A DNA stretch of 64,000 bases. It comes from a bacterium. GTDB lineage: Bacteria; CG03. Below, in pieces: positions 3,884-62,399 of the stretch. Position 1 is the stretch's first letter, and each line of letters opens with the position of its first letter. The notes under the pieces are model-generated. The model was given only the letters and a program-made list of their open reading frames with translations, did no database searches and was not told where the DNA came from. Made by a program: the position numbers and the translations under genes. The stretch spans positions 31,029 through 95,028 of the forward strand of contig JBDRRS010000014.1 of assembly GCA_043825615.1 (NCBI GenBank), given 5' to 3'.

Positions 3884-3901
3884 AAAAGTCAAAAAACAAA
3901 A

Positions 3902-13472: not shown

Positions 13473-13522
13473 TAATGAAAAGTATTGCGGGGAAAAACCC
13501 CGAAATTTCCGGCAGGGATTAG

Positions 13523-14098: not shown

Positions 14099-14119
14099 TG
14101 TTATGCGGAGCGGAATATA

Positions 14120-15123: not shown

Positions 15124-15180
15124 TTGGGGACAGTTGATAGTTGGGGACTGGTCTTGAAAAGCCCCGTCCCCTTCCATAAT
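15121..15180 (+). repeat. Family B repeat copy 2: direct repeats TAGTTGGGGACAG x2 plus hairpin GGGGACTGG/CCCGTCCCC followed by a T-rich run. Candidate intrinsic terminator after pilP.
   Basis: tagttggggacagttgatagttggggactggtcttgaaaagccccgtccccttccataat. Confidence 0.5.
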
Positions 15181-15229
15181 TCCGGAAAATGTATTATAAT
15201 ATTGAAATATATTGTGGAAATGCAGGATA

Positions 15230-37796: not shown

Positions 37797-37867
37797 CGGA
37801 AGTATTCAGTCAAACACGTCATCTATTTCATGGTTTTTCAATACTCAGTGCTCAGTGCTCAGTACTC

Positions 37868-39076: not shown

Positions 39077-39082
39077 CTATTG

Positions 39083-47427: not shown

Positions 47428-47874
47428 ATGAAACTTTCTACGAAAGGGCGTTATGGAGCCAGAGCAATGCTGGAACTGGCGCTTAATTATGAAAAGGGTA
47501 CTATGCTGCTTCGGGACATTGCCCATAGACAGGAAATTTCGGAAAGTTATCTTGAACGAATGATGACCGCTTTGGTTTCTGCCGGTTTGGTAAGAAGTTT
47601 ACGCGGACAGCATGGAGGGTTTATTTTAGCAAAGCCGCCGGGCGAAATCAGGCTGAGTAAAATAATTCAGGTTGTGGAGGGTTCGCTTTCTCCGTCTCCG
47701 TGCGTTGACGACCCGAAGCTGTGTAAACGGGTTAATATCTGTGTTACCCGCGATATATGGAGGAGGTTAAAAGAAGCAATGGCAGATATTCTGGATTCAA
47801 TAACTTTGAAGGATATGGTGAATATGCAGAAGAATAAGTGCGCGGGATTAGATGAGCAAATGTATTATATTTAG
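47428..47874 (+). CDS. Rrf2-family transcriptional regulator (CymR/IscR-like)
   Basis: MKLSTKGRYGARAMLELAL...LRDIAHRQEISESYLERMMTAL is the Rrf2 wHTH. It sits upstream of cysK, as CymR does in Firmicutes. Confidence 0.75.
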   Translation: MKLSTKGRYGARAMLELALNYEKGTMLLRDIAHRQEISESYLERMMTALVSAGLVRSLRGQHGGFILAKPPGEIRLSKIIQVVEGSLSPSPCVDDPKLCKRVNICVTRDIWRRLKEAMADILDSITLKDMVNMQKNKCAGLDEQMYYI

Positions 47875-47976
47875 AAAAAAGAATGACGGAGATGGAGCCG
47901 CCGGCGGCGGGTGAAGAGCACAATCAGGGGCCCTATTGAGTCGAGCAGGCACGAATTAAGTATAGAAGGGGGAAGT

Positions 47977-48903: not shown

Positions 48904-49014
48904 AAGTAAAATTATCATGGCGAGATGGAACAGCTTATGGCTGATGCGATGCCCCGTATGGGGCCAAGCGACAGGGGATTACAGACGAGTGAGAAAGTAT
49001 AAAGGAGTATAAAA

Positions 49015-50223
49015 ATGGCGAAGACGATTTCCGAAATAAATGAAAAAATAAAGAAAGGTGAAGCGGTTGTATTAACTGCCGAGGAGATGACGGACTTTGT
49101 AAGTAAAAAAGGGGCAAAGACCGCAGCGAAGGAAGTGGACGTCGTAACAACAGGGACATTCGGCCCGATGTGTTCCAGCGGGATGTATCTTAATATAGGA
49201 CATTCCAAGCCGAAGATAAAACTGGGGGGAGGGTCCTGCACACTTAACGATGTTCCGGCTTATTGCGGTTTTGCCGCAGTAGATATTTATCTCGGATGCA
49301 CGCATCTGCCCGACGATGACCCGCGTAACAAGGTCTATCCGGGCGAATTCAAGTACGGCGGAGGTCATGTGATAGAGGATTTTGTCGCCGGCAAGGATAT
49401 CAAGCTTATTGCCGCGGCGTACGGCACTGATTGCTATCCAAGAAGGAAACTGGAGACATTGATAAACATCAAGGATGTAAATGAGGCTGTTCTTTTCAAT
49501 CCGCGGAACGTATACCAGAATTACAACGTGGCGGTCAATTTAAGCGACAAAATAATTTACACCTACATGGGCGCGCTGAAACCGAATCTGGGTAATGCAA
49601 ATTACTGCAGCGCCGGTCAGCTGTCGCCCCTGCTGAACGACCCTCTGTACAAAACTACAGGAATCGGAACAAAGATTTTTCTCGGCGGCGGCACCGGTTA
49701 TGTTGTGTGGCAGGGAACCCAGCACAACCCGACTGTCAAAAGAAGGGAAAACGGCGTCCCGGTATCTCCCGCAGGAACGCTTGCCGTTATCGGGGATTTG
49801 AAAGAAATGTCTTCCGAATGGCTTAAAGGAACAAGCATGTTCGGTTACGGTGCAACTCTTACGGTGGGAATAGGCATACCCATTCCGATAATCAACGAGG
49901 AAATTGCCGTATACGCGGCAGTTAAAGATGATGACATTTTTGCTCCGATTGTTGATTACAGCGAAGCGTATCCAAATGCAAAACCCGGGAATTTAGGCGA
50001 GGTTTCTTACGCCCGGTTGAAGAGCGGAAAGATTACTGTTCAGGGGAAGGATGTCGCAACAGCTCCTCTATCCAGTTATTCAAAAGCAAAAGAAATTGCG
50101 GAGATTTTAAAAGAGCGGATAAAAAAAGGGCAATTCTTATTGACTGAACAGGTTGCTTCTATTCCCGGACCTGACTCAGGACTGAAATTCAAACCGCTTA
50201 AGGAAAGACCGCTGGAGCAGTAA
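49015..50223 (+). CDS. DUF39 / COG1900 protein (homolog of the methanogen L-aspartate-semialdehyde sulfurtransferase for homocysteine biosynthesis)
   Basis: 402 aa. The conserved DUF39 core has multiple Cys (GPMCSSGMYLN, GGGSCTLNDVPAYCGF). A NIL-ferredoxin partner gene is immediately downstream. Confidence 0.65.
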   Translation: MAKTISEINEKIKKGEAVVLTAEEMTDFVSKKGAKTAAKEVDVVTTGTFGPMCSSGMYLNIGHSKPKIKLGGGSCTLNDVPAYCGFAAVDIYLGCTHLPDDDPRNKVYPGEFKYGGGHVIEDFVAGKDIKLIAAAYGTDCYPRRKLETLINIKDVNEAVLFNPRNVYQNYNVAVNLSDKIIYTYMGALKPNLGNANYCSAGQLSPLLNDPLYKTTGIGTKIFLGGGTGYVVWQGTQHNPTVKRRENGVPVSPAGTLAVIGDLKEMSSEWLKGTSMFGYGATLTVGIGIPIPIINEEIAVYAAVKDDDIFAPIVDYSEAYPNAKPGNLGEVSYARLKSGKITVQGKDVATAPLSSYSKAKEIAEILKERIKKGQFLLTEQVASIPGPDSGLKFKPLKERPLEQ

Positions 50224-50224
50224 A

Positions 50225-50632
50225 ATGGTTACCGAACGAATTGTATTGAAATTTCCGAAGCGTGTGGTTGACCAGCCTGTCATATGCCGTCTGGTAAAAG
50301 AATACGACCTTGAATTCAACATCCTCAAAGCTTATATTACACCGCAGGAAGAGGGTCTAATGGTTCTGGAACTGAAAGGAGAGGATGAAAACTACAGGAA
50401 AGGAATAGATTATTTGAAGGGCACAGGCGTGAAAGTTCAGTTGCTGAGCAGTGATATAATTCGCAATGACGCAAGATGTACCCATTGCGGTGTTTGTATA
50501 TCTGTATGTCCGACAGGCGCGCTGGTTATTGATTCTGTTACCCGCAAAGTTCGTTTCCATAATGAAAAATGTATTGCCTGCGAACTCTGTGTTCCCGCCT
50601 GTCCGGTGAGAGCAATGGAAGTAAGTTTTTAA
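50225..50632 (+). CDS. NIL-domain plus 2x[4Fe-4S] ferredoxin protein (MA1822-like partner of DUF39)
   Basis: 135 aa. Two CxxCxxCxxxCP motifs (CTHCGVCISVCP, CIACELCVPACP) after an N-terminal NIL-like domain. Start lies 2 nt after the DUF39 stop. Confidence 0.65.
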   Translation: MVTERIVLKFPKRVVDQPVICRLVKEYDLEFNILKAYITPQEEGLMVLELKGEDENYRKGIDYLKGTGVKVQLLSSDIIRNDARCTHCGVCISVCPTGALVIDSVTRKVRFHNEKCIACELCVPACPVRAMEVSF

Positions 50633-50638
50633 TTTAGA

Positions 50639-50947
50639 GTGGACATCCTGGAAAAAATAGCAGAACTTAAAAGTCAGGGGAAGAAAGGGGCATTGGCTAC
50701 AGTGGTTGACACGAAGGGTTCAACGCCCAGGAAAGCCGGCGCAAAGATGCTGGTTTTGGAAGACGGAACCTTTTCAGGTTCCATTTGCGGGGGTTGTGTC
50801 GAGGCGGAGGTTTATCAGGAGGCCTGCCGGGTATTGAAAGACGGAGAGCCGAAAGTATTAGAGTTCAAACTTAACGAGAGAGAAATGCCGGAAGAAAGCG
50901 GTTTGATTTGCGGAGGAATAATGAAAATATTTATTGAACCGATATGA
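50639..50947 (+). CDS. XdhC/CoxI N-terminal-domain-only protein
   Basis: 102 aa. GALATVVDTKGSTPRKAGAKMLV...GSICGGCVEAEV matches the XdhC_CoxI N-domain. GTG start. Confidence 0.5.
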   Translation: MDILEKIAELKSQGKKGALATVVDTKGSTPRKAGAKMLVLEDGTFSGSICGGCVEAEVYQEACRVLKDGEPKVLEFKLNEREMPEESGLICGGIMKIFIEPI

Positions 50948-51702
50948 GAGGGGGAAATAAGATGCTTAAAGACAAAATTCTTTTAGGGAAATCCGGAGAA
51001 AATGTTGCGGAGCTTGTAGAAAAGTTGAATTTTGCCGAGAAGGTTGAAAGGTCTCTTGAATTAATAGATGCTGCTTATAAGGAATTCGGCGACGGGCTCG
51101 TTGTGGCGAACAGTTTAGGAAAGGACTCAAGCGCAGTCTGGCATCTTGCAAAAAGAGTTAGTCCGAAAATAAAAGGATTTATTGTTACAACACGTTTTAA
51201 ACCGGACGAGACAAAACAGTTTATGAAAGAAGAAGTCGGCAGGTATTCCGAATTAAGGGTTTTTAAAAATGATGAAGAAGTTCCCGAAAAACTTTATGAA
51301 ACCGACCCTGACCGCTGCTGCGATATTCTAAAAGTCAAACCCACCCGTCAGGCAATCGAAGAGATGAATGTAACCTGCTGGGTCACAGGTCTCAGATGCA
51401 CCGAGGGAAGAACCAGAACGGACTTTAAAGAAGTTGAAGAGAGGGATAAGGGGCTTCTTAAACTTAACCCGATTCTCATCTGGTATGAGCGGGAAATATG
51501 GCAGTATCTGGCTCTGAACAGAGTTATTGTCAATCCTCTTTATGCGAAGGGCTACAGATCTCTTGGATGCGCTCCGTGCACAAAAATTACATCCGGCATA
51601 GATGAGCGTGCAGGCAGATGGGTTAATACAAGCAAGTGCGGGGGAGAATGCGGAATACACACTCAACCCCTGAAGACAAATGTGGACGGTGACGGGATTT
51701 GA
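50944..51702 (+). CDS. PAPS/APS reductase-family protein (CysH-like, PP-loop ATP-pyrophosphatase fold)
   Basis: PP-loop-like SLGKDSS and a C-terminal Cys cluster (RSLGCAPCT...CGGECG). 252 aa. Confidence 0.65.
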   Translation: MRGGNKMLKDKILLGKSGENVAELVEKLNFAEKVERSLELIDAAYKEFGDGLVVANSLGKDSSAVWHLAKRVSPKIKGFIVTTRFKPDETKQFMKEEVGRYSELRVFKNDEEVPEKLYETDPDRCCDILKVKPTRQAIEEMNVTCWVTGLRCTEGRTRTDFKEVEERDKGLLKLNPILIWYEREIWQYLALNRVIVNPLYAKGYRSLGCAPCTKITSGIDERAGRWVNTSKCGGECGIHTQPLKTNVDGDGI

Positions 51703-51708
51703 TGGTAA

Positions 51709-52677
51709 ATGGTGAAGTATAGTTTTCTTACATTGCTGGTAATCCTGTTTGCAATGAATATGGGCGGCAGCGGTATTGCGCCTTCTTTTGCGGCAAGTTA
51801 CGGCAGTAAAATAATTAAGAAGAAATTTGCCGTAATTCTATTTACAATATTTGTATTTCTGGGAGCGGTTACAGTCGGCAGAAATGTCGTTAAAACTTTA
51901 AGCAGCGGCATAATATCACCGGAATTTATTAATTTTGATGTTGCGTTAATCATAATTCTGTCTGCAACATTAACTCTCGCTCTGGCGAATTTCCTGAGGA
52001 TACCGGAATCCACAAGCATGGTAACAGTCGGAGCGATAGTAGGAACCGGTGTATTTTTCGGCAATGTCCATTTGAAACTTTTGTACCGGATGCTGTTGCT
52101 ATGGATTACTTTTCCGGTCGTATCATATTTTTTAACATACTGGCTGTATAAAATAGTCTATCCGCCTTCTAACAGGAATTTATGGATTTATGAAAAGTTC
52201 CTTATAAAAGAGAAAAATTTCAGAATATTCACCATAATTGCGAGCTGTTACGGCGCATTTGCCGTCGGAACGAATAATGTCGCCAATGCAATAGGGCCTC
52301 TGGTCGGCGCTGAACTTGTAACTCCTTCTATGGGATTATTGCTGGTTACTCCGTTTCTGGGGCTTGGAGGTCTTCTCTTTGGAAAGAGAACGATTGAAAC
52401 CTTCAGTAATGAAATTGTTCCTCTGGGAAATATTTCCGCGCCCTTGATTGTATTTGTTACCGGAACTCTGCTTATTTTAGCATCGGCTCTCGGCTTTCCT
52501 TATCCGTATGTGCAACTTACTGCATTGTCTATTTTAGCAATCAGCAGCGTCAAAAACGGATATAAACATACAATGCGCCAGAACGTGGTCAGGAAAATCT
52601 TCAAAATATGGGCCGTCACTCCTTTGTTTTCCGCAGGCCTGGCGTTTTTGCTTCTAACAATATTTTTCAGGAGATAG
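51709..52677 (+). CDS. PiT-family anion permease (phosphate/sulfate transporter, CysP-like)
   Basis: 322 aa with about 9 TM helices. The N-terminus NMGGSGIAPSFAASYGS and the internal repeat GTNNVANAIGPL are PHO4/PiT signatures. Confidence 0.65.
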   Translation: MVKYSFLTLLVILFAMNMGGSGIAPSFAASYGSKIIKKKFAVILFTIFVFLGAVTVGRNVVKTLSSGIISPEFINFDVALIIILSATLTLALANFLRIPESTSMVTVGAIVGTGVFFGNVHLKLLYRMLLLWITFPVVSYFLTYWLYKIVYPPSNRNLWIYEKFLIKEKNFRIFTIIASCYGAFAVGTNNVANAIGPLVGAELVTPSMGLLLVTPFLGLGGLLFGKRTIETFSNEIVPLGNISAPLIVFVTGTLLILASALGFPYPYVQLTALSILAISSVKNGYKHTMRQNVVRKIFKIWAVTPLFSAGLAFLLLTIFFRR

Positions 52678-52679
52678 AA

Positions 52680-53480
52680 GTGATATATTTAGAGAAAAAA
52701 CAGTTCAGCCGGATGATAGAACATTGTCAAAAAGAGTATCCTAAGGAGGCATGTGGAATTCTTGCCGGGAAAGCTTGTCCTGAGCGGGGCCGAAGGGATG
52801 AAAGGGTATCAAAGGTGTATAAAATGGTTAATACCTCGGAGAAACCTGAAATCTGTTATTTTATGGAACCTAAAGAGCAATTAAAAGTATTTAAAGAAAT
52901 GCGTCGGCTCGGTGTAGAGATGTTAGGAATATATCACTCTCATTCGGAGACTTTAGCCTATCCGTCAAAACGGGATTGCGAAATGGCATTCTATCCTGAA
53001 GCATCTTATGTGATCGTTTCGTTACAGGATTTTAATAAACCTGATGTGCGGGCTTTTAAAATTATGGAAGATAAAATTGATGAGGAACAAGTTGTGGTGA
53101 GAAAAAACATTCTTTTTGTCTGTGTAGAGAATTCATGCAGGAGCCAGATAGCAGAAGCGATAGTTAATAATCTTCACCGGCAGAAATTTGTCGCTTACAG
53201 CGCAGGCTCAAAGCCTTCCGGCGCCGTGAATCCGTTGGCAATAGAAGTAATGAAGGAAATAGGAATCGATATTTCCGGGCAAAAAAGCAAGGGCTTTGAT
53301 ACAGTCGGAGATATAGAATTTGACTATGTAATAACCATGGGCTGCGGTGATTCTTGCCCTGTTTATCCTGCAAAAGAGAGTTTTGACTGGCAGATAGATG
53401 ACCCGAAGAATAAACCAATAGAGTTTTTTCGAAAGGTGAGAGATGAGATTCAAAGAAAAATTCAGGAGTTGTTAAAATGA
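52680..53480 (+). CDS. Fusion protein: JAMM/MPN+ metalloprotease (Mec+/CysO-cleaving type) plus an LMW-PTP-family arsenate reductase (ArsC, thioredoxin-coupled type) domain
   Basis: JAMM motifs EACGIL ... HSHSETLAYPSKRD. The C-terminal half aligns with B. subtilis-type ArsC (FVCVENSCRSQIAEA, TMGCGDSCP, FFRKVRDEIQRKI). GTG start has SD aggaga 6 nt upstream. The longest ORF begins at 52608. Confidence 0.65.
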   Translation: MIYLEKKQFSRMIEHCQKEYPKEACGILAGKACPERGRRDERVSKVYKMVNTSEKPEICYFMEPKEQLKVFKEMRRLGVEMLGIYHSHSETLAYPSKRDCEMAFYPEASYVIVSLQDFNKPDVRAFKIMEDKIDEEQVVVRKNILFVCVENSCRSQIAEAIVNNLHRQKFVAYSAGSKPSGAVNPLAIEVMKEIGIDISGQKSKGFDTVGDIEFDYVITMGCGDSCPVYPAKESFDWQIDDPKNKPIEFFRKVRDEIQRKIQELLK

Positions 53481-54631
53481 ATTTTATTCTTTTAGGGATT
53501 AGTCATAAAACCGCTCCGGTAAAAGTGAGGGAGAGATACTCATTTTCTAAAAAGCGGCTTTCAGAGACTTTGATTAGATTATCCAGGAATAAAATGATAG
53601 ATGAAGTGGTGCTCCTTTGCACCTGCAATCGAACAGAAATATATGCAAACACACTTGCCCGCCGCGACTTGGCAGGCGGGGATTTTACAGATGCGGCGAA
53701 AAAATCTTTATACAGCGAATTACGCCGTGCCTGCCGGCAGGCAGGAACTACGAACTACCCCACGACTTCGCTTAGGGCAGGCGAATTACAATACTTTTAT
53801 TTCCTGCAAAACAAGGATGTGATCAAACATCTTTTCAGGGTTGGTGCAGGTCTTGATTCTCAGGTTATTGGAGAAAGCCAGATTCTGGGACAGGTGAAAA
53901 ATGCATATTTCCATGCAAAAGAACTGGGAACAACAGGGAAATATTTCTATAAGCTGTTTCAGAAAGCAATAGAAGCAGGCAAGATTGTACACAGGACAAC
54001 TAAAATATCTGAGGGGAATATTTCTATTGGTACTGTTGCATTGAGGATGGCTGAGAATTTATTGGGAACTTTGAATGGAAAGAAGATTTTGATAATTGGA
54101 ACAGGAAAAACCGGCGAATTAGCAGCTAAATATCTGGCAGATAGAGGAATATCCGGATCCTTTGTTGCTAATAGAACCCATGAAAAGGCAATAGAACTCG
54201 CAGCAAAAATTGGCGGCAGAGCAGTCGGATTTAATAATCTGAAAAATGAAATTAAAGATACAGACATCATTATCAGCGCCACAGCCAGTCCGCATTTGAT
54301 TTTGAAAAAAGAGATGATTAGAGAGATTATGAGTCTTCGCAGAAAACCTCTTTGTTTAATGGACCTGGCATTACCGCGTGATATAGACCCTGAAATAAAA
54401 TGTATTAATAATGTGAGTTTGTGCAATTTAGATGACTTTAATTTAATAATTGAAGAGAATTATAGAAAAAGAGTTCAAGAGGCAAAAAAAGCAGAAGAGA
54501 TTATAAAAGAAGAGGTGAAAAAATTTTGGAAATGTCTAAACGAACCACGAACAACCCCTCGACTTCGCTCGGGGCAGGCGAATTACGAACCACGGTTAGA
54601 ATCGGCACCCGTCCGAGCCGGCTTGCTTTAA
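53477..54631 (+). CDS. hemA: Glutamyl-tRNA reductase, with an in-frame repeat insertion and a repeat-derived C-terminus
   Basis: Active-site region VLLCTCNRTEIY, then HLFRVGAGLDSQVIGESQILGQ, and the NADPH-binding ILIIGTGKTGE. There is about 17 aa of extra sequence between the catalytic Cys region and the HLFRV block. Confidence 0.8.
   Translation: MNFILLGISHKTAPVKVRERYSFSKKRLSETLIRLSRNKMIDEVVLLCTCNRTEIYANTLARRDLAGGDFTDAAKKSLYSELRRACRQAGTTNYPTTSLRAGELQYFYFLQNKDVIKHLFRVGAGLDSQVIGESQILGQVKNAYFHAKELGTTGKYFYKLFQKAIEAGKIVHRTTKISEGNISIGTVALRMAENLLGTLNGKKILIIGTGKTGELAAKYLADRGISGSFVANRTHEKAIELAAKIGGRAVGFNNLKNEIKDTDIIISATASPHLILKKEMIREIMSLRRKPLCLMDLALPRDIDPEIKCINNVSLCNLDDFNLIIEENYRKRVQEAKKAEEIIKEEVKKFWKCLNEPRTTPRLRSGQANYEPRLESAPVRAGLL
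53745..53789 (+). repeat. Intragenic 45-bp repeat, copy 1 (inside hemA, in frame)
   Basis: gaactacgaactaccccacgacttcgcttagggcaggcgaattac. Flanked upstream by a second gcgaattac at 53716-53724. Confidence 0.45.
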
Positions 54632-55260
54632 AGCAGGCGGAGGAAGCAGCGGAGATGTTGAATGATTGTGAAATCAGGTTTGAGGTAAAAACATATAATA
54701 CTTCAGGAGATATGGATAAGACCACTCCGATTTCAGAAATTGACGGGTCTGATTTTTTTACGGACTTTCTTGAAAAAGCATTATTAAACGGTGAAATAGA
54801 TATAGCCGTGCATAGCGCTAAAGATTTACCTGATAAAATATCCGACGGACTGGTTATTGCTGCTGTAACCAGGTCAATAGACCCGTATGATGTGTTAATT
54901 TCCAAAAACAATTTAAGTTTAAGCGAACTTCCAAATGGCGCAAAAATCGCAACAAGCAGTATTCGGCGTAAAGAGCAGTTAAAAAAATACAGACCTGATT
55001 TTCAGATTCTGGATATTAGGGGCAATATTGAGGAACGTTTAGCAAAATTGGATAACAGTAACCTGGACGGCATTGTAATTGCCGCCGCCGGATTAATCCG
55101 TTTAGGTCTGGAAAACAGGATAACTCAAAAGATTCCTTTTGAAATTCTTGTGCCTCACCCTATGCAGGGAGCGCTGGCAATAGAGACACGTAAGGATAAT
55201 GAAGAAATGATTAACAGGGTGAAAAAACTGGACACAAGACATATTGAGAAGAAAAGATGA
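54526..55260 (+). CDS. hemC: Porphobilinogen deaminase (hydroxymethylbilane synthase)
   Basis: IGTRPSRLALKQAEE core, 244 aa. The N-terminal 20 aa are encoded by the repeat element. The start is ATG 54526 or 54532. It overlaps the hemA 3' end by about 100 bp in another frame. Confidence 0.8.
   Translation: MEMSKRTTNNPSTSLGAGELRTTVRIGTRPSRLALKQAEEAAEMLNDCEIRFEVKTYNTSGDMDKTTPISEIDGSDFFTDFLEKALLNGEIDIAVHSAKDLPDKISDGLVIAAVTRSIDPYDVLISKNNLSLSELPNGAKIATSSIRRKEQLKKYRPDFQILDIRGNIEERLAKLDNSNLDGIVIAAAGLIRLGLENRITQKIPFEILVPHPMQGALAIETRKDNEEMINRVKKLDTRHIEKKR
54542..54595 (+). repeat. Intragenic 45-bp repeat, copy 2 plus a partial third unit (spans the hemA 3' end and the hemC 5' end)
   Basis: gaaccacgaacaacccctcgacttcgctcggggcaggcgaattac followed by gaaccacgg. 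About 40/45 identical to copy 1 in the same orientation. Confidence 0.45.
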
Positions 55261-56633
55261 AAAAAGGTAAAGTTTATTTAATAGGAGCAGGCCCGGGTGA
55301 CCCGGGTTTGATTACCGTAAAGGGATTAGAGATTTTAAAACAGGCAGAAGTTGTAATTTATGATTATCTTGTGGATAAGACAATTTTGAAATATGCAAGT
55401 CCAACGGCAGAGTTGATATGCGCTGATGAATTAGATAGGGAAAGATTTAGCATAAATAAGATAATGGTGAAAAAAGCAAAAGCAGGAAAAAGAGTTGCGC
55501 GTTTGAAAAACGGGGACCCTTTTGTCTTTGGAAGGGCAAATGAAGAGATTGAAGCGCTGAGTAAAAACAGGATAGAATTTTCCGTGATTCCGGGAGTTAC
55601 TGCTGCAAATGCTGCCAGTTGTTTTAGCGGGATACCTTTAACAGCAAGAGGCGTTTCGTCAAATGTGGTATTTGCAACCGGTCATGAAGACCCTAAAAAA
55701 AATAAAGGTTTTATTAACTGGAAGAACATTGCTCAGGCTGATACCATTGTTTTATACATGGCAGTAGAAAACTTGCCTCAAATTACTCAAAAGTTGCTCG
55801 TATCAGGAAAGAAAATAAATACACCTGCAGCAGTTATTTCCGATGTGAGCAGGATTGGCCAGAAGATTGTTACAGGTGTTTTAAAAGATATTTCAAACAA
55901 GACAAAAGCAGAAAAAATATCTGCTCCTGCGATTGTAATTATCGGCGATGTTGTGAAAAAAGAAAGGAATTTTAACTGGTTCGGTAAAAACAGGAAGATA
56001 CTTTTTACAGGGCTTTCTTCGGAGAGGTTTTTTGAAAAAGGCATAATTTTTCATCTTCCCATGATTGAGATTAAACCTTTGAACGATTATAATGAGATGG
56101 ATAAATGGATTAAAAAGATAAATACTTTTGACTGGATTGTTTTTTCGAGCAGATTTGGAGCGCTTTATTTTTTCAGGAGATTATTAGGCCAGGGTTTTGA
56201 TACCCGTGTATTAAATGGAATAAAAATTGCGGCCATAGGAAATTCAACTGCTGGCAAATTAAGAGAATACGGCATCATTGCGGACATAATTCCGAAGCAG
56301 GAGTCGTCTTCCGGTCTGCTTGGGGAGTTGAGAAAATTAAACATTGCTGGTGCAAAGATTTTTCTGCCGCGCTCGGATATTGCTGATAAAGGTTTGACCG
56401 AAGGCTTAAAAAAGTTTGACGCTGTTGTTTATTCCTGTGTGGCTTACAGGAATGTTATGCCTGAAAATCTGCCGGACATGGACTTTGACTTTTTTGATGA
56501 GATTATATTCAGCAGTCCTTCAGCGGGAAGAAATCTTATAAAAAGATACGGAAAACCGCCGGAAAGAATCAGAATAAGAGCGATTGGTTCTGTGACCGGA
56601 AAGGAATTGAAAAAATGGGGTTTATCCGCTTAA
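55257..56633 (+). CDS. cobA: Uroporphyrinogen-III C-methyltransferase / uroporphyrinogen-III synthase fusion (CobA-HemD)
   Basis: The N-terminus VYLIGAGPGDPGLITVKG is the SAM-dependent tetrapyrrole methylase signature. The C-terminal 230 aa are HemD-like. Confidence 0.8.
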   Translation: MKKGKVYLIGAGPGDPGLITVKGLEILKQAEVVIYDYLVDKTILKYASPTAELICADELDRERFSINKIMVKKAKAGKRVARLKNGDPFVFGRANEEIEALSKNRIEFSVIPGVTAANAASCFSGIPLTARGVSSNVVFATGHEDPKKNKGFINWKNIAQADTIVLYMAVENLPQITQKLLVSGKKINTPAAVISDVSRIGQKIVTGVLKDISNKTKAEKISAPAIVIIGDVVKKERNFNWFGKNRKILFTGLSSERFFEKGIIFHLPMIEIKPLNDYNEMDKWIKKINTFDWIVFSSRFGALYFFRRLLGQGFDTRVLNGIKIAAIGNSTAGKLREYGIIADIIPKQESSSGLLGELRKLNIAGAKIFLPRSDIADKGLTEGLKKFDAVVYSCVAYRNVMPENLPDMDFDFFDEIIFSSPSAGRNLIKRYGKPPERIRIRAIGSVTGKELKKWGLSA

Positions 56634-57589: not shown

Positions 57590-58896
57590 ATAAAAGACTA
57601 TTTAAAGAAGCGGAGAAGCACATACCGGGCGGAGTGAATTCTCCTGTAAGGGCGTTTAAAGCAGTCGGTGGAACCCCCTTGTTTATTAAAAGGGGAAAAG
57701 GTTCGAAAATTTATGATGTTAAAGGAAGAGAATATATTGATTATGTGATGTCATGGGGCGCATTGGTCTTAGGACATGGTCATCCTGAAGTAATCAGAAA
57801 AGTCAGAGCCGCCCTTGTAAACGGAACAAGTTTCGGCGCTCCTACGCAGATAGAAACGGAACTGGCAAAAGAGATTTGTAAAGCATATCCTTCAATTGAA
57901 AAGGTACGCCTGGTAAATTCAGGCACAGAGGCGTGCATGAGCGCTGTAAGGCTGGCAAGAGGTTATACGGGAAGAGCAAAAATTATTAAATTTTCCGGTT
58001 GTTATCACGGTCATGCTGATTATCTGTTGGTTCAGGCAGGTTCAGGCATGACAACATTTCGTTCAACGAGTTTGGGGGTGCCAAAAGATTTTATCAAGTA
58101 TACTTTTGTTCTGCCATATAATAATTTAGATGCAGTTGAGAAAACAGTAAAGAAGTATCACAAAGATATTGCCTGTATTATTATAGAACCGATTGCAGGG
58201 AACATGGGCGTTGTATTGCCGGAAGGGGATTTTCTGCAGGGTCTTCGTGAAATTTGCGACCGGTATAAAATAGTCCTTATTTTTGATGAGGTGATTACGG
58301 GCTTCAGAGTTGCTTATGGCGGGGCACAGGAAATTTATAGAGTAAAACCTGACATAACCTGTCTTGGAAAAATTATTGGCGGAGGATTGCCCATAGGAGC
58401 ATTTGGCGGGAATAAGGAAATTATGGATAATCTTTCTCCCGGGGGAGATGTATATCAGGCAGGCACATTATCAGGCAATCCTGTTGGTGTAACCGCCGGT
58501 CTTACAACATTAAAAATTCTTTCCACAAGAAAAGTATACGGTTTACTTGAAAAAAAAGCCGGACTTCTTTGCAAAGGGATTGAAGAAAATATAAACAAGA
58601 CAGGAGTAAAAGCCGTTATAAACAGGGCGGGTTCAATGTTTACAATATTTTTTACAAATGAGAAGGAAGTTTGCTATTATAAAACAGCGGCACGGTCAAA
58701 TACCGGACACTATGCACAGTTTTTTCATGAAATGCTGAAACAGGGGATTTATCTACCTCCGTCACAGTTTGAGTCCTGCTTTGTTTCTATTGCGCATACA
58801 GAAGCTGATATTAAAAAAACAATAAAAGCGTCTTTAATGGCATTTGAAAAATATAAGGTCGCCTCTTCGGCGACCTGCCGGGGAGGCAGGAGGTAA
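57574..58896 (+). CDS. hemL: Glutamate-1-semialdehyde 2,1-aminomutase
   Basis: Class III aminotransferase PLP fold. HemL N-terminus GGVNSPVRAF and the FDEVITGFR PLP region. Confidence 0.85.
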   Translation: MAKKMNKRLFKEAEKHIPGGVNSPVRAFKAVGGTPLFIKRGKGSKIYDVKGREYIDYVMSWGALVLGHGHPEVIRKVRAALVNGTSFGAPTQIETELAKEICKAYPSIEKVRLVNSGTEACMSAVRLARGYTGRAKIIKFSGCYHGHADYLLVQAGSGMTTFRSTSLGVPKDFIKYTFVLPYNNLDAVEKTVKKYHKDIACIIIEPIAGNMGVVLPEGDFLQGLREICDRYKIVLIFDEVITGFRVAYGGAQEIYRVKPDITCLGKIIGGGLPIGAFGGNKEIMDNLSPGGDVYQAGTLSGNPVGVTAGLTTLKILSTRKVYGLLEKKAGLLCKGIEENINKTGVKAVINRAGSMFTIFFTNEKEVCYYKTAARSNTGHYAQFFHEMLKQGIYLPPSQFESCFVSIAHTEADIKKTIKASLMAFEKYKVASSATCRGGRR

Positions 58897-58897
58897 A

Positions 58898-59752
58898 ATG
58901 GCGGAATATGACATTAAACAATTGAAAGCCGGCGGATTTATGAAACAGAAGGGGAAAGATTTATTCTCAGTCAGACTCCGCATTGTCGGAGGTTTCGTTA
59001 AAAGTGCGCAGCTTCCCAAATTGCAGAAAATCGCTGATAAATACGGACGCGGTTATATTCATCTCACCACCCGTCAGGGAATTGAAATTCCCCATGTGCA
59101 TTTTAAGGATTTTGAGAATGTGAAAAAAGAATTAAAAGAAGCAGGTCTGGGAATTGGCGCCTGCGGCCCTCGCGTCAGGACAATAACCGCGTGTCAGGGA
59201 AAGGCCTGTTCCCACGGACTCATTGACAGCCAGGAGCTTGCCGGGCATATTGATAAAATATTTTTCGGCAGCGCCGGGCTGCCCCATAAATTTAAAATAG
59301 GTATTACAGGTTGCCCGAATGCCTGTATTAAGCCGCAGGAAAATGACCTTGGCATTATGGGAATAATAAAAAAAGGTTTTGATAAGAATCTGTGTAATTA
59401 TTGCGGATTGTGCGCGGAAGTCTGTCCTGTGAAAGCAATAAAAGTTAGTGAGGGAAACATTGAATACAATGAAAAAAAATGTATAGGCTGCGGGGAGTGT
59501 GTTTTTTCCTGTCCTACTTGTGCATGGAGAAAAGATATGGAAGGTTACAGGATATTTGCAGGCGGCAAGATGGGCAAGTTTCCTAAACTGGGTTTTCCGC
59601 TTTTTGATTTTTACAGGAATTTAGACGAATTGTTAAATATCATAGAAAGACTGTTTGAGTTTTATAAGGAACAGGGAATAAAAGGAGAAAGATTCGGAGA
59701 CACAATAGACCGGCTGGGAATAGAGTATGTTAAAAATAAGTTGAGTGTTTGA
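58898..59752 (+). CDS. Small nitrite/sulfite-reductase-like sirohaem-[4Fe-4S] protein with an extra ferredoxin-type 2x[4Fe-4S] insert
   Basis: NiR/SiR ferredoxin-like half-domain plus [16 protein letters not shown]...GCPNAC (sirohaem-coupled cluster) and [12 protein letters not shown] / [14 protein letters not shown] aggagg lies before the ATG at 58898. The longest ORF begins at 58844. Confidence 0.55.
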
Positions 59753-59763
59753 GGAGGAAAACA

Positions 59764-60906
59764 ATGGCAATAAAGATTTTAATTAACGGTAAAGAAGAGG
59801 AATTGGAGAAAGAGATGGAAGTTCTGGAGGTGCTTAAGAAAAAAAATATCCGGCCGGAAGTGGTAACCGTAGAGTTGAATAAAAAGATAATAAATAGTAA
59901 AGATTATCAGTCAACCCTGCTTAAACAGGGTGATGTGCTTGAGTTTGTCTTTTTTATGGGAGGAGGCCGGAGCAAAATGCCCGATGAAGTTGCCGGTAAT
60001 GTTCTGGAATTGGTAGGAAACACGCCTACGGTAAGATTGAACAGGATTGTTGACAAAGAGTGCGCGGAAGTTTATGCCAAGCTGGAATCTTTTAATCCGG
60101 GCGGCAGTGTCAAAGACCGTATTTGCCTTTCTATGATTGAAGATGCGGAAAAGAAAGGAAAATTGAAGCCCGGCGCAATAATCGTTGAACCGACATCGGG
60201 AAATACAGGAATAGGCCTGGCAATGGTGTGCGCGGTCAAGGGGTATAAATGCATTCTGACAATGCCGGAATCAATGAGTCTTGAACGGATATTTATATTG
60301 AAATCTTACGGAGCAGAGGTTGTTTTAACGCCGTCTGCCGAAGGAATGCAGGGAGCGATAAAAAAAGCGGAAGGGATTATTAAAAAGACCCGGAACAGTT
60401 TTATGCCGCAGCAATTTAATAATCCGGCTAATCCTGAAGTACACCGCAGAATCACTGCAAAAGAAATACTGGCGGTTCTCGACGGCAAACTGGACGCTTT
60501 TGTTGCCGGCGTAGGAACAGGCGGAACGATTACGGGAGTAGGCGAAATCCTTAAAAAGAAAAACCCGGATATAAAGATAATAGCAGTTGAACCTTTAACT
60601 TCAGCAGTGCTGTCCGGTAAAAGCGCCGGTCCGCATAAAATTCAGGGGATTGGCGCAGGTTTTATTCCGGAGGTTCTAAACCGCAAAATAATTGATAAAA
60701 TCATTACAGTGGGTGACAAGCAGGCTTTTGATATTGCGAGGCGGCTGGCCAGAGAAGAAGGTTTGTTAGTAGGTATTTCTTCCGGGGCGGCGGTCTTTGC
60801 CGCGCTTAAGACGGCAAAGGATTTAGGGGCGGGGAAAAGAGTGATTGTCATCCTGCCTGATACGGGAGAAAGATATTTCAGTATGGAGCAGTATTTTACT
60901 GCCTGA
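59764..60906 (+). CDS. Fusion: ThiS/MoaD/CysO-like sulfur-carrier domain (ending GGG) plus cysteine synthase (CysM/CysK-type PLP enzyme)
   Basis: The N-terminal 70 aa form a beta-grasp-like domain [12 protein letters not shown]...[17 protein letters not shown]. The linker [10 protein letters not shown] comes next, then the full OASS fold ([27 protein letters not shown]). This fold is about 65-70 percent identical to cysK at 47977. SD gaggagg. Confidence 0.65.
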
Positions 60907-60920
60907 TAGGGAGTAAAGAA

Positions 60921-61166
60921 ATGAATGATATGAAGATTGACGGGAAGCTCGACCTGCGGGGTGTAATTTGTCCGATGAATTTTGTTAAAACAAAACTCAA
61001 ACTTGAAGAGATGCAGCCGGGGCAAATTCTTGAAGTGATACTTGATGACGGTGAGCCGGTTAGAAATGTTCCGCGCAGTGTAAAAGAAGAAGGGCATAAG
61101 ATTGTCAAAGTGGAAAGACTTGAGAATGCCTTCAAATTGCTGATTAAAAAATCTACGGAGGTTTGA
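60921..61166 (+). CDS. tusA: TusA-family sulfurtransferase
   Basis: 81 aa. CPxP motif LRGVICPMNFVKTK at the N-terminus of the TusA two-layer fold. Confidence 0.65.
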   Translation: MNDMKIDGKLDLRGVICPMNFVKTKLKLEEMQPGQILEVILDDGEPVRNVPRSVKEEGHKIVKVERLENAFKLLIKKSTEV

Positions 61167-62399
61167 ATGTCTTTTGTTAGAGGACTAAAATGCAGAGAAT
61201 GCGGCAGAAAATATCCTAAAGAACCGATTTATGTGTGCGAGTATTGTTTCGGCCCGTTGGAAGTGGATTATGATTATTCAGGAATAAAGAAAAAGCTAAA
61301 CAGAGATTTGATTGTTTCACGCCCCAAAAATCTCTGGCGTTATCGTGAATTGCTGCCTATCGACGGCGACCCGGTGGTTGGTCTGCAATCAGGTTTTACA
61401 CCGCTGATTAAAGCGGATAATTTAGCAAAAAAATTAGGAGTGAAGGAGTTATATGTCAAAGATGATTCGGTGTGTCATTCGACTCTTTCTTTCAAAGATA
61501 GAGTGGTCTCGGTTGCTATCTCTAAAGCAAAAGAATTCGGCTTTGATACTGTTGCCTGCGCTTCCACGGGGAATTTGGCAAATGCCGTCTCCGCGCAGGC
61601 CGCTCAGGCAGGCATGAAATGTTTTGTTTTCATACCTGCGGACCTGGAATCAGGAAAAGTAATTGCTTCGCTGATATATGCCCCGAGGGTTATTGCAGTC
61701 GAGGGAAATTACGATGAAGTGAACCGTCTTTGCACGGAAGTTGCAAATAAATACAAATGGGCATTTGTTAATATCAATATACGGCCTTATTATGCCGAGG
61801 GCTCAAAAACTTATGTTTATGAAATTGTTGAACAGCTTGGCTGGCGCGCGCCGCGCCACATTATTGTTCCGGTTGCGGGAGGGTCTTTGCTTTCCAAAAT
61901 CTGGAAAGGCTTGCAGGAGTTTCAAAAATTAGGGCTGATTGACGAATTTAACACAAAAATTTATGCTGCCCAGGCGCATGGCTGCTCTCCTGTGGTTACG
62001 GCGATTAAAGAGAACAGCGAAATTATCAAGCCGGTAAAACCAAAGACAATTGCCAAATCTTTAGCCATCGGGAATCCTGCGGACGGATACTATGCTTTTA
62101 AGACGGTTATGGAAAGCGGCGGCTGGGGGGAGGAGGCAACCGATGCAGAAATAGTTGAAGGGATAAAACTGCTTGCTTTAACCGAGGGAATATTCACTGA
62201 AACAGCAGGAGGCGTTACTGTTGCCGTAGCCAAAAAGCTTATTGCTCAGGGGAGAATTCCGAAGGATGAGTCAATAGTTATTTCGATTACAGGCAACGGG
62301 TTAAAGACACAGGAGGCGGTAGCGGGCAAAACAGGGGAACCGGTAAAGATAAAAGCGAATATAGATTCTTTTGAAGAAACAGTCCAGGTAAAAGGATGA
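61167..62399 (+). CDS. thrC: Threonine synthase-family PLP enzyme with an N-terminal zinc ribbon
   Basis: CRECG...CEYCFGPLEV zinc ribbon. PLP-lysine context SFKDRVV. 410 aa. Confidence 0.7.
   Translation: MSFVRGLKCRECGRKYPKEPIYVCEYCFGPLEVDYDYSGIKKKLNRDLIVSRPKNLWRYRELLPIDGDPVVGLQSGFTPLIKADNLAKKLGVKELYVKDDSVCHSTLSFKDRVVSVAISKAKEFGFDTVACASTGNLANAVSAQAAQAGMKCFVFIPADLESGKVIASLIYAPRVIAVEGNYDEVNRLCTEVANKYKWAFVNINIRPYYAEGSKTYVYEIVEQLGWRAPRHIIVPVAGGSLLSKIWKGLQEFQKLGLIDEFNTKIYAAQAHGCSPVVTAIKENSEIIKPVKPKTIAKSLAIGNPADGYYAFKTVMESGGWGEEATDAEIVEGIKLLALTEGIFTETAGGVTVAVAKKLIAQGRIPKDESIVISITGNGLKTQEAVAGKTGEPVKIKANIDSFEETVQVKG

What the first reader, a model, noticed from the sequence alone, without database searches (positions are those of the whole stretch)
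52680..53480. JAMM (Mec+-type) protease fused to a thioredoxin-coupled ArsC/LMW-PTP domain
JAMM proteases in sulfur-carrier pathways cleave the carrier-GG-cysteine or carrier-GG-fusion bond. ArsC-family domains (CX5R P-loop FVCVENSCRSQ, plus the downstream Cys pair in MGCGDSCP) catalyse thiol-dependent reductions. A single polypeptide with both, sitting in the same locus as a ThiS-like-GGG~CysM fusion, suggests coupled processing and reduction chemistry. I have not seen this fusion described. The GTG start has a good SD.
Basis: partly seen in the sequence, partly recalled or inferred. Interest (0 to 1): 0.55.

Follow-up and report, generated by a model that had tools for sequence, protein, structure and literature searches.

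The report
JAMM peptidase fused to ArsC reductase
A real, conserved single gene joins a sulfur-carrier-trimming JAMM peptidase to an arsenate-reductase-type domain inside a sulfate-assimilation locus, but comparison with related loci indicates that two neighbouring genes merged end to end rather than forming a new coupled enzyme.

Summary
Window 52680-53480 (+) is one 266-aa ORF with a Prok-JAB domain (residues 6-127) and an LMWPc/ArsC domain (144-265). All catalytic motifs are intact, the GTG start has an SD, and a ThiS-GGG-CysK fusion lies 6 kb downstream. It is not a chimera: the identical protein is on an independent assembly, and 32 database cluster representatives (58-84% identity; named ones are Omnitrophica or Endomicrobiia MAGs) share the architecture with a gap-free "RKN" junction.

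The proposed coupling of cleavage and reduction is not supported. In 68 related loci with the same synteny (Rrf2|APS reductase|(Sat)|CysP|JAMM|hem genes|ThiS-CysK|Sir|TusA|ThrC), 50 have no LMWPc. In 9 it is fused to JAMM, in 3 to a short HemC, and in 6 it is a separate gene. The domain is 61-64% identical to ArsCs that sit beside ACR3, are fused to ArsM, or are fused to PhoU in a pst operon. It shows no clade-specific active-site change, and 3 of 33 fused proteins have lost catalytic residues while JAMM residues stay invariant.

Best reading: a bifunctional protein whose halves act independently. One half is a Mec+/HcyD-type ThiS peptidase. The other is an accessory thioredoxin-type arsenate reductase. 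The architecture is undescribed but probably ordinary.

The parts
52680..53480 (+). Single ORF (266 aa, GTG start, TGA stop) encoding the JAMM-LMWPc fusion
   Evidence: The identical product is called on an independent Logan contig. 32 database cluster representatives share the architecture.
52680..53099 (+). JAMM/MPN+ (Prok-JAB) domain, residues 1-140, with E23, H86, H88, S96, D99
   Evidence: Pfam PF14464, E 2.8e-25. PDB 2kks, E 6.5e-29. Foldseek TM 0.83 to 2kks and 0.86-0.92 to PfJAMM1. Catalytic residues are invariant in all fused proteins that cover them.
53100..53477 (+). ArsC-type LMWPc domain, residues 141-266, with P-loop C148-X5-R154-S155, C222-X3-C226 (GCGDSCP) and D241-P242
   Evidence: Pfam PF01451, E 1.3e-25. 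PDB 3t38 Cg_ArsC1' E 2.9e-26 and 2l17 E 4.6e-24. Foldseek TM 0.82-0.85 to pI258 ArsC. NCBIfam ArsC models hit but fall below their cutoffs.
52669..52673 (+). Shine-Dalgarno AGGAG, 6 nt before the GTG and inside the 3' end of the cysP-like gene
   Evidence: Sequence read directly.
51709..52677 (+). CysP-like PiT-family permease, immediately upstream (2-nt gap)
   Evidence: Pfam PHO4, E 4.9e-47. NCBIfam SulfPermCysPBac 267.5 bits, below its cutoff of 400. The PHO4|JAMM adjacency is conserved in most related loci.
50944..51702 (+). APS/PAPS-reductase family gene (CC...CxxC and ECGIH motifs)
   Evidence: Pfam PAPS_reduct. NF002537 at 166 bits, above its cutoff of 154.
53477..54631 (+). hemA (glutamyl-tRNA reductase); its start overlaps the stop of the fusion (ATGA)
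54655..55260 (+). Short hemC lacking the C-terminal domain. In sister lineages this gene carries the LMWPc domain at its C-terminus.
   Evidence: TIGR00212 positions 1-218 of 293. The start coordinate comes from the gene call on L175. HemC-LMWPc fusions.
59749..60906 (+). ThiS-GGG~CysK fusion, the inferred substrate of the JAMM domain
   Evidence: TIGR01683 ThiS at residues 10-73 and TIGR01139 cysK at 86-380. Sequence ...[12 protein letters not shown]....
58844..59752 (+). Small sulfite-reductase-like protein with a ferredoxin domain
   Evidence: TIGR02912 at 170 bits, below cutoff, plus other NIR_SIR-type models.
60921..61166 (+). TusA/SirA-like sulfur-relay protein
   Evidence: NF008242 and NF001423 hits, below cutoffs.
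61167..62399 (+). ThrC-like PLP enzyme with an N-terminal Zn ribbon
   Evidence: TIGR00260 at 300.6 bits, above its cutoff of 167.
47428..47874 (+). Rrf2-family regulator at the head of the locus
   Evidence: ORF listing. Rrf2 sits at the head of the related loci.

Best explanation
The gene encodes a bifunctional protein made by end-to-end fusion of two neighbouring operon genes. Their activities are most likely independent.

N-terminal half: a Zn-dependent JAMM/MPN+ peptidase of the Mec+/HcyD kind. It serves the protein-thiocarboxylate route to cysteine and homocysteine encoded in the same locus. It would cut after the ThiS ...GG(G) tail, freeing ThiS from the ThiS~CysK fusion. It would also hydrolyse the ThiS-Cys or ThiS-Hcy amide formed after the PLP enzymes (CysK, ThrC-like) act. 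These steps are inferred from family, motifs and conserved context; nothing has been assayed.

C-terminal half: a three-cysteine, thioredoxin-coupled arsenate reductase of the Cg_ArsC1'/pI258 type (P-loop Cys148, then Cys222 and Cys226). It would reduce As(V) to As(III). It is an optional accessory of this sulfate-assimilation/siroheme/ThiS locus, co-expressed with it, plausibly because arsenic stress and thiol supply are physiologically linked.

The fusion arose once, in an ancestor within the Omnitrophota-like lineages. The Met of the ArsC gene (MK[KN]ILFVC in stand-alone proteins) became Arg, giving ...VV-RKN-ILFVC. The fusion was then inherited.
For: Both domains and all catalytic motifs are present.

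The JAMM context is conserved across 80+ loci: Rrf2|APSr|(Sat)|PHO4|JAMM|hem|ThiS(-)CysK|Sir|TusA|ThrC|ThiF|NIL. This matches neighbourhood type 4e of Iyer et al. 2006 (PMC1779556).

LMWPc is optional and positionally promiscuous. Of 68 informative loci, 50 have none, 9 have it fused to JAMM, 3 have it fused to HemC and 6 have it as a separate gene.

Its nearest relatives outside the locus are arsenic or phosphate genes:
- P0060 (64% identity) abuts an ACR3 pump (430 bits against a cutoff of 283).
- P0066 (62%) is an ArsC-ArsM fusion (376 bits against 263).
- P0068 (61%) is a PhoU-ArsC at the end of a pst operon.
- Many further family members sit beside Acr3, ArsR or ArsM.

The consensus of the locus-linked clade and that of the arsenic-linked and stand-alone relatives are identical at every catalytic motif. 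Only 2 positions discriminate between them (166 and 261).

Other ars genes flank the same sulfur locus in other lineages: Acr3 upstream of Rrf2 in L152, and ArsM-like genes in L154, L135 and L098.

Three of the 33 fused proteins have lost LMWPc catalytic residues (P0024 C148Y; P0031 C148, C153, R154 and C226; P0032 R154I). JAMM residues H86, H88, S96 and D99 are invariant.

Sulfur-assimilation genes are known to be induced by arsenic (PMC4010505).
Against: There is no arsenite pump, ArsR or ArsM anywhere in the 64-kb window.

The adjacent PiT permease has the CysP-type Asp->Gly and Asp->Asn substitutions. These are thought to abolish phosphate transport, and hence probably arsenate transport (sequence; PMC5840216). 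The simple 'reduce what the neighbouring transporter lets in' rationale is therefore weak.

The LMWPc domain is at least as conserved as the JAMM domain (67% against 63% mean pairwise identity). The junction is length-invariant, and AF2 gives pTM 0.85 for the two-domain protein. All of this is compatible with a functionally integrated unit.

The locus-linked LMWPc domains form their own clade, which excluded the ars-linked proteins in about 90 of 100 NJ bootstrap replicates. A clade-specific role cannot be excluded.

NCBIfam ArsC equivalog cutoffs are not reached. No activity has been measured.
Confidence: 0.55

Rival explanations
1. The ArsC-type domain has been recruited to the sulfur-carrier pathway. 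It would use its P-loop Cys and CX3C relay, with thioredoxin, to reduce a sulfur intermediate (for example an S-sulfocysteine-like, persulfide or ThiS acyl-disulfide species). It would work in concert with JAMM cleavage.
For: The fusion has a rigid, zero-length, gap-free junction in all 33 sequences, and AF2 gives pTM 0.85. The LMWPc domain is under purifying selection equal to that on JAMM. The locus-linked LMWPc domains form a separate clade from the ars-linked ones in about 90% of bootstrap replicates. The window has no arsenite pump. The CysP-type permease is unlikely to import arsenate. The locus is rich in thiol and persulfide chemistry: TusA, APS reductase, and DsrE-type genes in relatives.
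Against: 50 of 68 syntenic loci run the same ThiS/JAMM pathway with no LMWPc. The sister clade has the domain on HemC, not JAMM. Active-site motifs do not differ from Acr3- or ArsM-linked ArsCs. Catalytic Cys or Arg is lost in 3 fused members while JAMM stays intact. I found no precedent in the literature searched.
Confidence: 0.15
2. The LMWPc domain serves the tetrapyrrole (siroheme) branch. For example, it might partner the truncated HemC, which lacks the usual cofactor-binding C-terminal domain. On this view its attachment to JAMM is incidental.
For: Seven cluster representatives plus loci L004 and L102 have short HemC fused at its C-terminus to LMWPc, exactly where domain 3 would be. In the window the fusion gene is translationally coupled to hemA. 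HemC here matches only positions 1-218 of 293 of TIGR00212.
Against: The same short HemC occurs in many loci with no LMWPc at all, for example L106, L119, L121, L123 and L127. L093 has JAMM-LMWPc with no hem genes in the visible locus. The LMWPc motifs are those of redox ArsCs.
Confidence: 0.07
3. The LMWPc domain acts as a phosphatase rather than a reductase. Its target might be a phospho-metabolite of the pathway (O-phosphoserine, O-phosphohomoserine, PAP) or a phosphoprotein.
For: The LMWPc fold has the CX5R(S) P-loop and a conserved Asp-Pro. pI258-type ArsCs retain weak phosphatase activity (own knowledge). A McsB arginine kinase is encoded elsewhere in the window.
Against: The two extra cysteines (GCGDxCP) are conserved in 32 of 33 fused proteins and are a reductase feature. 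Hits to Wzb/YwlE-type phosphatases are marginal (E 2e-4 in NCBIfam; 2e-5 to 4pic) compared with ArsC hits of 1e-24 to 1e-30.
Confidence: 0.05
4. Artefact: a misassembly, frameshift or read-through joining two separate genes.
For: None found.
Against: The identical 266-aa product is on an independent Logan assembly. 32 cluster representatives from NCBI, JGI, ENA and Logan assemblies share the architecture with a gap-free junction.
Confidence: 0.01

Closest known systems
Mec+ (Rv1334) of the M. tuberculosis CysO/CysM pathway and HcyD of the Wolinella succinogenes HcyS pathway. These are JAMM peptidases of protein-thiocarboxylate Cys/Met biosynthesis (own knowledge; Krishnamoorthy & Begley 2011 is cited as ref. 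34 in PMC5764234; the neighbourhood type is described in PMC1779556).
   Same: JAMM motif E...HxH...S..D. Operon association with a ThiS-like carrier ending in GG, a CysK/CysM-type PLP enzyme, APS/PAPS reductase, sulfite reductase and SirA/TusA.
   Different: Those proteins are single-domain. Here the JAMM domain carries a C-terminal ArsC domain, the carrier is fused to CysK, and the locus is interleaved with siroheme (hem) genes. No cleavage assay exists for this protein.
DSY2949 of Desulfitobacterium hafniense (PDB 2kks), an uncharacterised stand-alone Prok-JAB protein
   Same: Best sequence and structure match to residues 1-143 (E 6.5e-29, 42% identity, TM 0.83).
   Different: No LMWPc domain. 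Function not determined.
Cg_ArsC1' of Corynebacterium glutamicum (PDB 3t38), a thioredoxin-dependent three-cysteine arsenate reductase
   Same: Best PDB sequence match for the C-terminal half (E 2.9e-26). Shares the ITMGCGDxCP CX3C motif and the P-loop Cys/Arg.
   Different: Its P-loop is CVHNAGRSQ, against CVENSCRSQ here. It has an unrelated N-terminal extension and sits in an ars context.
S. aureus pI258 / B. subtilis ArsC (thioredoxin-coupled LMWPc arsenate reductases)
   Same: Same fold (TM 0.82-0.85), the CxxNSCRS P-loop and the DDP acid.
   Different: The resolving cysteines are spaced CX6C there and CX3C here. The TIGR02691 score is 92, against a cutoff of 174.
Other ArsC fusions in the same LMWPc subfamily: ArsC-ArsM (P0066), PhoU-ArsC and ArsC-PhoU (P0068, P0094, P0096), ArsR-LMWPc (P0121), HemC-ArsC (P0043 and others)
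   Same: 56-74% identical ArsC domains attached to whatever gene lies next to them.
   Different: The partner here is a JAMM peptidase. Only one 50%-identity cluster in 1.84 billion representatives has this pairing.

Membership tests
JAMM/MPN+ metallopeptidase (Prok-JAB, PF14464) | Profile match above the curated threshold | tested here: met
   88.9 bits against a cutoff of 25.
JAMM/MPN+ metallopeptidase (Prok-JAB, PF14464) | Catalytic motif: Glu, H-x-H, Ser and Asp (Zn ligands and general base) | tested here: met
   E23, H86, H88, S96 and D99 are present. H86, H88, S96 and D99 are invariant in 33 of 33 sequences, and E23 in 30 of 30 that cover it.
JAMM/MPN+ metallopeptidase (Prok-JAB, PF14464) | MPN fold | tested here: met
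   AF2 model (pLDDT 89) superposes on 2kks (TM 0.83) and PfJAMM1 (TM 0.86-0.92).
Mec+/HcyD-type sulfur-carrier peptidase | Genomic association with a ThiS/CysO-like carrier ending in GG and a PLP sulfhydrylase | tested here: met
   ThiS-GGG~CysK at 59749-60906. The JAMM + ThiS + CysK + ThrC synteny recurs in 80+ loci.
Mec+/HcyD-type sulfur-carrier peptidase | Hydrolysis of a carrier-GG-X bond or a carrier-Cys/Hcy amide | not testable with these tools
   Needs an enzyme assay.
Haloarchaeal desampylase (NF041370) | Equivalog score cutoff | tested here: not met
   88 bits against a cutoff of 130.
LMWPc superfamily (PF01451) | Profile match above threshold and the C-X5-R-(S/T) P-loop | tested here: met
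   90.7 bits against a cutoff of 23.2. The P-loop is C148-VENSC-R154-S155.
Thioredoxin-coupled arsenate reductase (pI258 ArsC family, TIGR02691 / NF010053) | Curated equivalog or subfamily score | tested here: not met
   92.4 against 174.3, and 94.3 against 215. The glutaredoxin-type model TIGR02689 scores 104.8 against 157.6. The Acr3-adjacent relative P0060 also scores below these cutoffs, so the models do not cover this subfamily.
Thioredoxin-coupled arsenate reductase (pI258 ArsC family, TIGR02691 / NF010053) | Three redox cysteines (nucleophile plus two resolving Cys) and an Asp general acid | tested here: met
   C148, C222 and C226 (CX3C spacing as in Cg_ArsC1', PDB 3t38) and D241. These are conserved in 30-33 of 33 sequences.
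Thioredoxin-coupled arsenate reductase (pI258 ArsC family, TIGR02691 / NF010053) | Arsenic-resistance gene context (arsR, arsB/acr3, arsM) | tested here: not met
   None of these genes is in the 64-kb window. The feature is met only by close relatives and by neighbours of some related sulfur loci.
Thioredoxin-coupled arsenate reductase (pI258 ArsC family, TIGR02691 / NF010053) | As(V) reduction with thioredoxin as the electron donor | not testable with these tools
   Needs an enzyme assay or complementation.
LMW protein tyrosine/arginine phosphatase (Wzb, YwlE) | Significant similarity to the phosphatase subfamilies | tested here: not met
   Wzb model NF007520 scores 21.7 bits against a cutoff of 243. 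YwlE PDB entries give E 2e-5 to 3e-4, against ArsC at 1e-24 or better.

The most novel reading that the evidence does not exclude
The ArsC-type domain is not an arsenic enzyme here. It is a dedicated thioredoxin-linked thiol/disulfide reductase of the ThiS-thiocarboxylate pathway. It would resolve an S-sulfo, persulfide or acyl-disulfide intermediate on the carrier or on CysK, and it would be physically coupled to the JAMM peptidase that releases the product. This would be a new catalytic use of the LMWPc/ArsC scaffold in sulfur assimilation.
Probability: 0.12. Interest if true: 0.7.

Novelty: new variant of a known kind. Interest (0 to 1): 0.3.

Why it matters
If the halves act independently, as the evidence favours, the finding is mainly useful for annotation. 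Public records name these proteins only 'Mov34/MPN/PAD-1 family protein' or 'protein-tyrosine-phosphatase' and miss one activity or the other.

It also shows that an ArsC module is a recurrent accessory of the sulfate-assimilation/siroheme/ThiS supraoperon in Omnitrophota-like bacteria. That is one more genomic link between arsenic handling and thiol supply.

It is a caution as well. Rosetta-stone reasoning from a single fusion can mislead when the domain in question fuses with any neighbour (JAMM, HemC, PhoU, ArsM, ArsR).

Only if the minority reading holds, with ArsC chemistry applied to a sulfur intermediate, would it change how protein-thiocarboxylate pathways are understood.

Tried and rejected
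- LMWPc as a substitute for the missing HemC C-terminal domain. Rejected as a general explanation, because the same short HemC occurs in many loci with no LMWPc.
- A conserved LMWPc + HD-phosphohydrolase pair. An HD gene follows LMWPc in L004 and in L173. The two HD proteins are unrelated, and the L004-type HD gene also occurs in loci without LMWPc (L106, L139). It is absent from the window.
- Three or more independent recruitments of ArsC into the locus, suggested by the first NJ tree. This did not survive bootstrapping. L107 and L110 fall inside the main locus-linked clade in about 55% of replicates and L108 in 22%. L108's copy lies next to an ArsR-like gene, so it may belong to a neighbouring ars unit. 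I make no claim about independent recruitment.
- 'ArsC mops up arsenate let in by the adjacent PiT permease'. This is weakened by the CysP-type Asp substitutions in both PiT signature motifs and by L093, which has JAMM-LMWPc but no PHO4.
It returned only one partial fused locus (L013), so it gives no taxonomic census of the fusion.
- The first bootstrap script timed out.
- Krishnamoorthy & Begley 2011 (PMC3089676) is not held. The HcyD comparison rests on my own knowledge and on its citation in PMC5764234.
- A search for other JAMM+LMWPc architectures among the multi-stretch hits of the representative search found only tandem LMWPc, ArsR-LMWPc and tandem JAB proteins.
Full report
**1. The observation**

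Window 52680-53480 (+) is a single ORF of 266 codons.
- It starts at a GTG 6 nt after an AGGAG. The cysP-like gene's TAG stop is 2 nt upstream of that GTG.
- Its own TGA overlaps the ATG of hemA (ATGA), so it is packed into a translationally coupled gene string.
- Pfam finds Prok-JAB at residues 6-127 (E 2.8e-25) and LMWPc at 144-265 (E 1.3e-25), both far above the gathering scores.
- The JAMM signature is complete: E23, H86-x-H88, S96, D99. So is the ArsC-type set: C148-X5-R154-S155, C222-X3-C226, D241-P242.
- The best solved relatives are DSY2949 (2kks, E 6.5e-29) for the N-terminal half, and Cg_ArsC1' (3t38, E 2.9e-26) and Synechocystis ArsC (2l17) for the C-terminal half.
- An AlphaFold2 model built on 22 homologues has pLDDT 89.3 and pTM 0.85. 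Foldseek recovers MPN structures (TM 0.83-0.92) and pI258, Deinococcus and B. subtilis ArsC structures (TM 0.78-0.85). No solved structure covers both halves.

**2. It is not an artefact**

- The identical 266-aa product is called on an independently assembled Logan contig with the same neighbours.
- Among the best 120 hits in the 5.8-billion-protein collection, 32 cluster representatives (58-84% identity) carry both Pfam domains. They come from NCBI, JGI, ENA and Logan assemblies. Those that are named are Candidatus Omnitrophica or Endomicrobiia MAGs.
- In an alignment of all 33 sequences the junction ...(I/V)(V/I)(V/I)-RKN-ILFVC... has no gaps. Stand-alone relatives begin MK(K/N)(I/V)LFVC. 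The join is therefore essentially end to end, with Arg where the ArsC initiator Met used to be.
- The family is narrow. In the 1.84-billion-sequence library of 50%-identity representatives, exactly one protein (P0010) matches the query over its full length. The other multi-stretch hits are tandem LMWPc, ArsR-LMWPc or tandem JAB proteins.

**3. The locus**

On the + strand the window encodes, in order:
- Rrf2
- CysK
- HcyBio (DUF39)
- NIL-ferredoxin
- a small XdhC_CoxI-domain protein
- an APS/PAPS-reductase-family enzyme with the Fe-S cysteine motifs
- a CysP-like PiT permease
- JAMM-LMWPc
- HemA
- a short HemC
- CobA-HemD
- HemB
- HemL
- a small sulfite-reductase-like protein
- ThiS~CysK
- a TusA-like protein
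- a ThrC-like enzyme

This is the 'ThiS/MoaD + JAB + SirA + sulfate assimilation' neighbourhood that Iyer et al. described (row 4e of Table 1, PMC1779556). Here it is interleaved with the genes for the siroheme precursor pathway. That paper does not mention any arsenate reductase or phosphatase partner, and a full-text search for JAMM together with arsenate reductase found nothing relevant. The DUF39/NIL-ferredoxin pair is the known alternative homocysteine route (PMC5764234). The window contains no ATP sulfurylase and no ThiF/E1-like gene, whereas relatives do.

**4. Comparative context, the decisive evidence**

I fetched 80 metagenomic loci encoding JAMM relatives (46-70% identity) and added the loci of selected homologues. 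I then mapped the window's proteins onto all of them.

The synteny is strongly conserved: Rrf2|APSr|(Sat)|PHO4|JAMM|HemA|HemC|CobA-HemD|HemB|HemL|ThiS(-)CysK|Sir|TusA|ThrC|ThiF|NIL. The LMWPc module is not. Of 68 loci where the sequence downstream of JAMM is visible:
- 50 have no LMWPc.
- 9 have it fused to JAMM.
- 3 have it fused to the C-terminus of the short HemC. Seven further HemC-LMWPc cluster representatives appear, and the architecture was confirmed for P0043.
- 6 have it as a separate gene. In L107 it lies between JAMM and HemA. In L108-112 it lies upstream of Rrf2. In L110 it overlaps the end of hemC in another frame.

In locus L004 a stand-alone 145-aa JAMM is followed 7 nt later by HemC-LMWPc, and that LMWPc is 74% identical to the window's. 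So the same LMWPc lineage is attached to different neighbours in sister lineages, and the ThiS/JAMM pathway usually runs without it.

**5. What kind of LMWPc this is**

The closest relatives outside the locus sit in arsenic or phosphate contexts.
- P0060 (64% identity) abuts a gene that scores 430 bits on the ACR3 equivalog model, against a cutoff of 283.
- P0066 (62%) is fused to an arsenite methyltransferase (376 bits against 263).
- P0068 (61%) is a PhoU-LMWPc closing a phoBR-pstSCAB operon.
- Among 74 stand-alone family members from GTDB genomes, many lie beside Acr3, ArsR or ArsM.

An NJ tree puts the JAMM-fused and most HemC-fused domains in one clade. That clade excludes the Acr3-, ArsM- and PhoU-linked proteins in about 90 of 100 bootstrap replicates. 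Even so, the consensus sequences of the two groups are identical at every catalytic motif. Only two positions (166 and 261) discriminate between them.

Within the fused family the LMWPc half is as conserved as the JAMM half (67% against 63% mean pairwise identity). Three of the 33 have nevertheless lost catalytic residues: P0024 has C148Y, P0031 has lost C148, C153, R154 and C226, and P0032 has R154I. The JAMM residues never vary.

Arsenic genes also flank the same sulfur locus elsewhere. Acr3 lies directly upstream of Rrf2 in L152, and ArsM-like genes occur in L154, L135 and L098.

**6. Interpretation**

The most economical reading is that a thioredoxin-type arsenate reductase gene became an accessory member of this sulfur locus in an Omnitrophota-like ancestor. 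It then merged with whichever gene preceded it: JAMM in one branch, HemC in another. On this reading the two halves keep their separate jobs.

The JAMM half is inferred to process the ThiS C-terminus, cleaving ThiS~CysK after GG(G) and releasing Cys or Hcy from the carrier. This follows the example of Mec+ and HcyD (own knowledge; neighbourhood evidence). The ArsC half is inferred to reduce arsenate.

A physiological link is plausible. Arsenic exposure induces sulfate uptake, sulfur assimilation and cysteine synthesis in bacteria, yeast and plants (PMC4010505).

The narrower rationale that ArsC deals with arsenate entering through the adjacent permease is weak. The permease has the CysP-type Asp->Gly and Asp->Asn replacements in both PiT signature motifs (sequence; PMC5840216), and L093 has the fusion without any PHO4 gene.

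**7.

- The junction is rigid and gap-free, and the pTM is 0.85.
- The ArsC half is under strong purifying selection.
- The locus-linked domains form a separate clade.
- The window has no arsenite pump.

I put a sulfur-directed or JAMM-coupled role at about 0.15, a HemC-directed role at about 0.07, a phosphatase role at about 0.05 and an artefact at about 0.01.

**8. Novelty and score**

Both domains, the pathway and the neighbourhood type are known. ArsC domains of this subfamily fuse with many different neighbours. The JAMM-ArsC pairing itself appears undescribed in the literature I could search. It is confined to one 50%-identity cluster.

I rate it a new variant of a known kind, with an interest of 0.3. 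The score would rise substantially only if the ArsC half proves to act on a sulfur intermediate.

Noticed in passing
window 54655-55260 (hemC); L004 10001-11083; L102 8666-9688: hemC in this window and in all related loci is short (about 200-220 aa). It matches only positions 1-218 of the 293-position TIGR00212 model, so it lacks the C-terminal domain that carries the dipyrromethane-binding Cys in E. coli HemC (own knowledge). The window protein has a single Cys. In several lineages this short HemC is fused at its C-terminus to the ArsC-type LMWPc domain. How a HemC without that domain binds its cofactor is unexplained.
   Followed up: partly
window 53745-53789 and 54542-54586: A 45-nt direct repeat, 89% identical (0 expected by chance). 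One copy is inside the hemA ORF and the other is in its 3' tail. Both read in frame as low-complexity peptide (..TTNYPTTSLRAGELQ.. and ..RTTPRLRSGQANYEP..). Homologues of the JAMM-LMWPc protein carry unrelated low-complexity in-frame inserts in the same JAMM loop. The window has ACPERGRR, which its 84%-identical relative P0001 lacks. This suggests short repeat elements that insert into coding sequence.
   Followed up: partly
window 59749-60906: A ThiS-like carrier ending FMGGG is fused in frame to a full CysK-type cysteine synthase. The same fusion, or an abutting ThiS|CysK pair, recurs in most related loci. A second, unfused CysK (47911-48903) sits next to the DUF39/NIL-ferredoxin homocysteine genes. 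The locus therefore encodes parallel routes to Cys and Hcy.
   Followed up: partly
window 47428-62399 compared with L001, L003, L004, L011: The window locus has no ATP sulfurylase between the APS-reductase-like gene and cysP. It also has no ThiF/E1-like gene after thrC, and neither is found anywhere in the 64 kb. Many relatives have both. The loci fall into two classes: one with an APS reductase about 75% identical to the window's and usually no Sat, the other with one about 31% identical plus Sat.
   Followed up: partly
L152 1761-2738; L154 1879-2610; L135 4048-4746; L098 3381-4115; L108 5670-5861: Arsenic-resistance-type genes lie directly beside the same Rrf2-headed sulfur locus in several unrelated metagenomic contigs. 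They include an Acr3 73% identical to a bona fide ACR3, ArsM-like methyltransferases and an ArsR-like regulator. This hints at a recurrent arsenic/sulfur-assimilation gene linkage beyond the ArsC domain.
   Followed up: partly
window 51709-52677: The PiT-family permease has GGSGIAPS and GTNNVANA in place of the two GANDVANA signatures. These are the same Asp->Gly and Asp->Asn changes reported for B. subtilis CysP (PMC5840216). It is therefore probably a sulfate permease rather than a phosphate permease. It scores below the NCBIfam CysP cutoff (267 against 400).
   Followed up: partly
window 50639-50947: A 102-aa protein consists only of the XdhC_CoxI N-terminal domain. It sits between the NIL-ferredoxin gene and the APS-reductase-like gene. 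Its role in a sulfur locus is unclear.
   Followed up: no
L004 11061-11588; L095 3064-3567; L102 6231-6734; L103 9161-9655; L001 17020-17712: An HD-domain protein, some copies with an N-terminal Zn ribbon, is a frequent extra member of the related loci. It often lies right after the LMWPc-containing gene, but it also occurs in loci without LMWPc. It is absent from the window.
   Followed up: partly
window 3350-4942: A McsA-like (UVR motif) and McsB (ATP:guanido phosphotransferase) pair, the protein-arginine kinase system. Its usual phosphatase partner, YwlE, is an LMWPc protein, but the LMWPc domain studied here is clearly ArsC-like and not YwlE-like.
   Followed up: no
window 12327-17041 and 30718-41463: Type IV pilus assembly genes (PilM/N/O, secretin). 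On the opposite strand there is a block of very large ORFs (up to 1770 aa) with pseudopilin-like N-termini.
   Followed up: no
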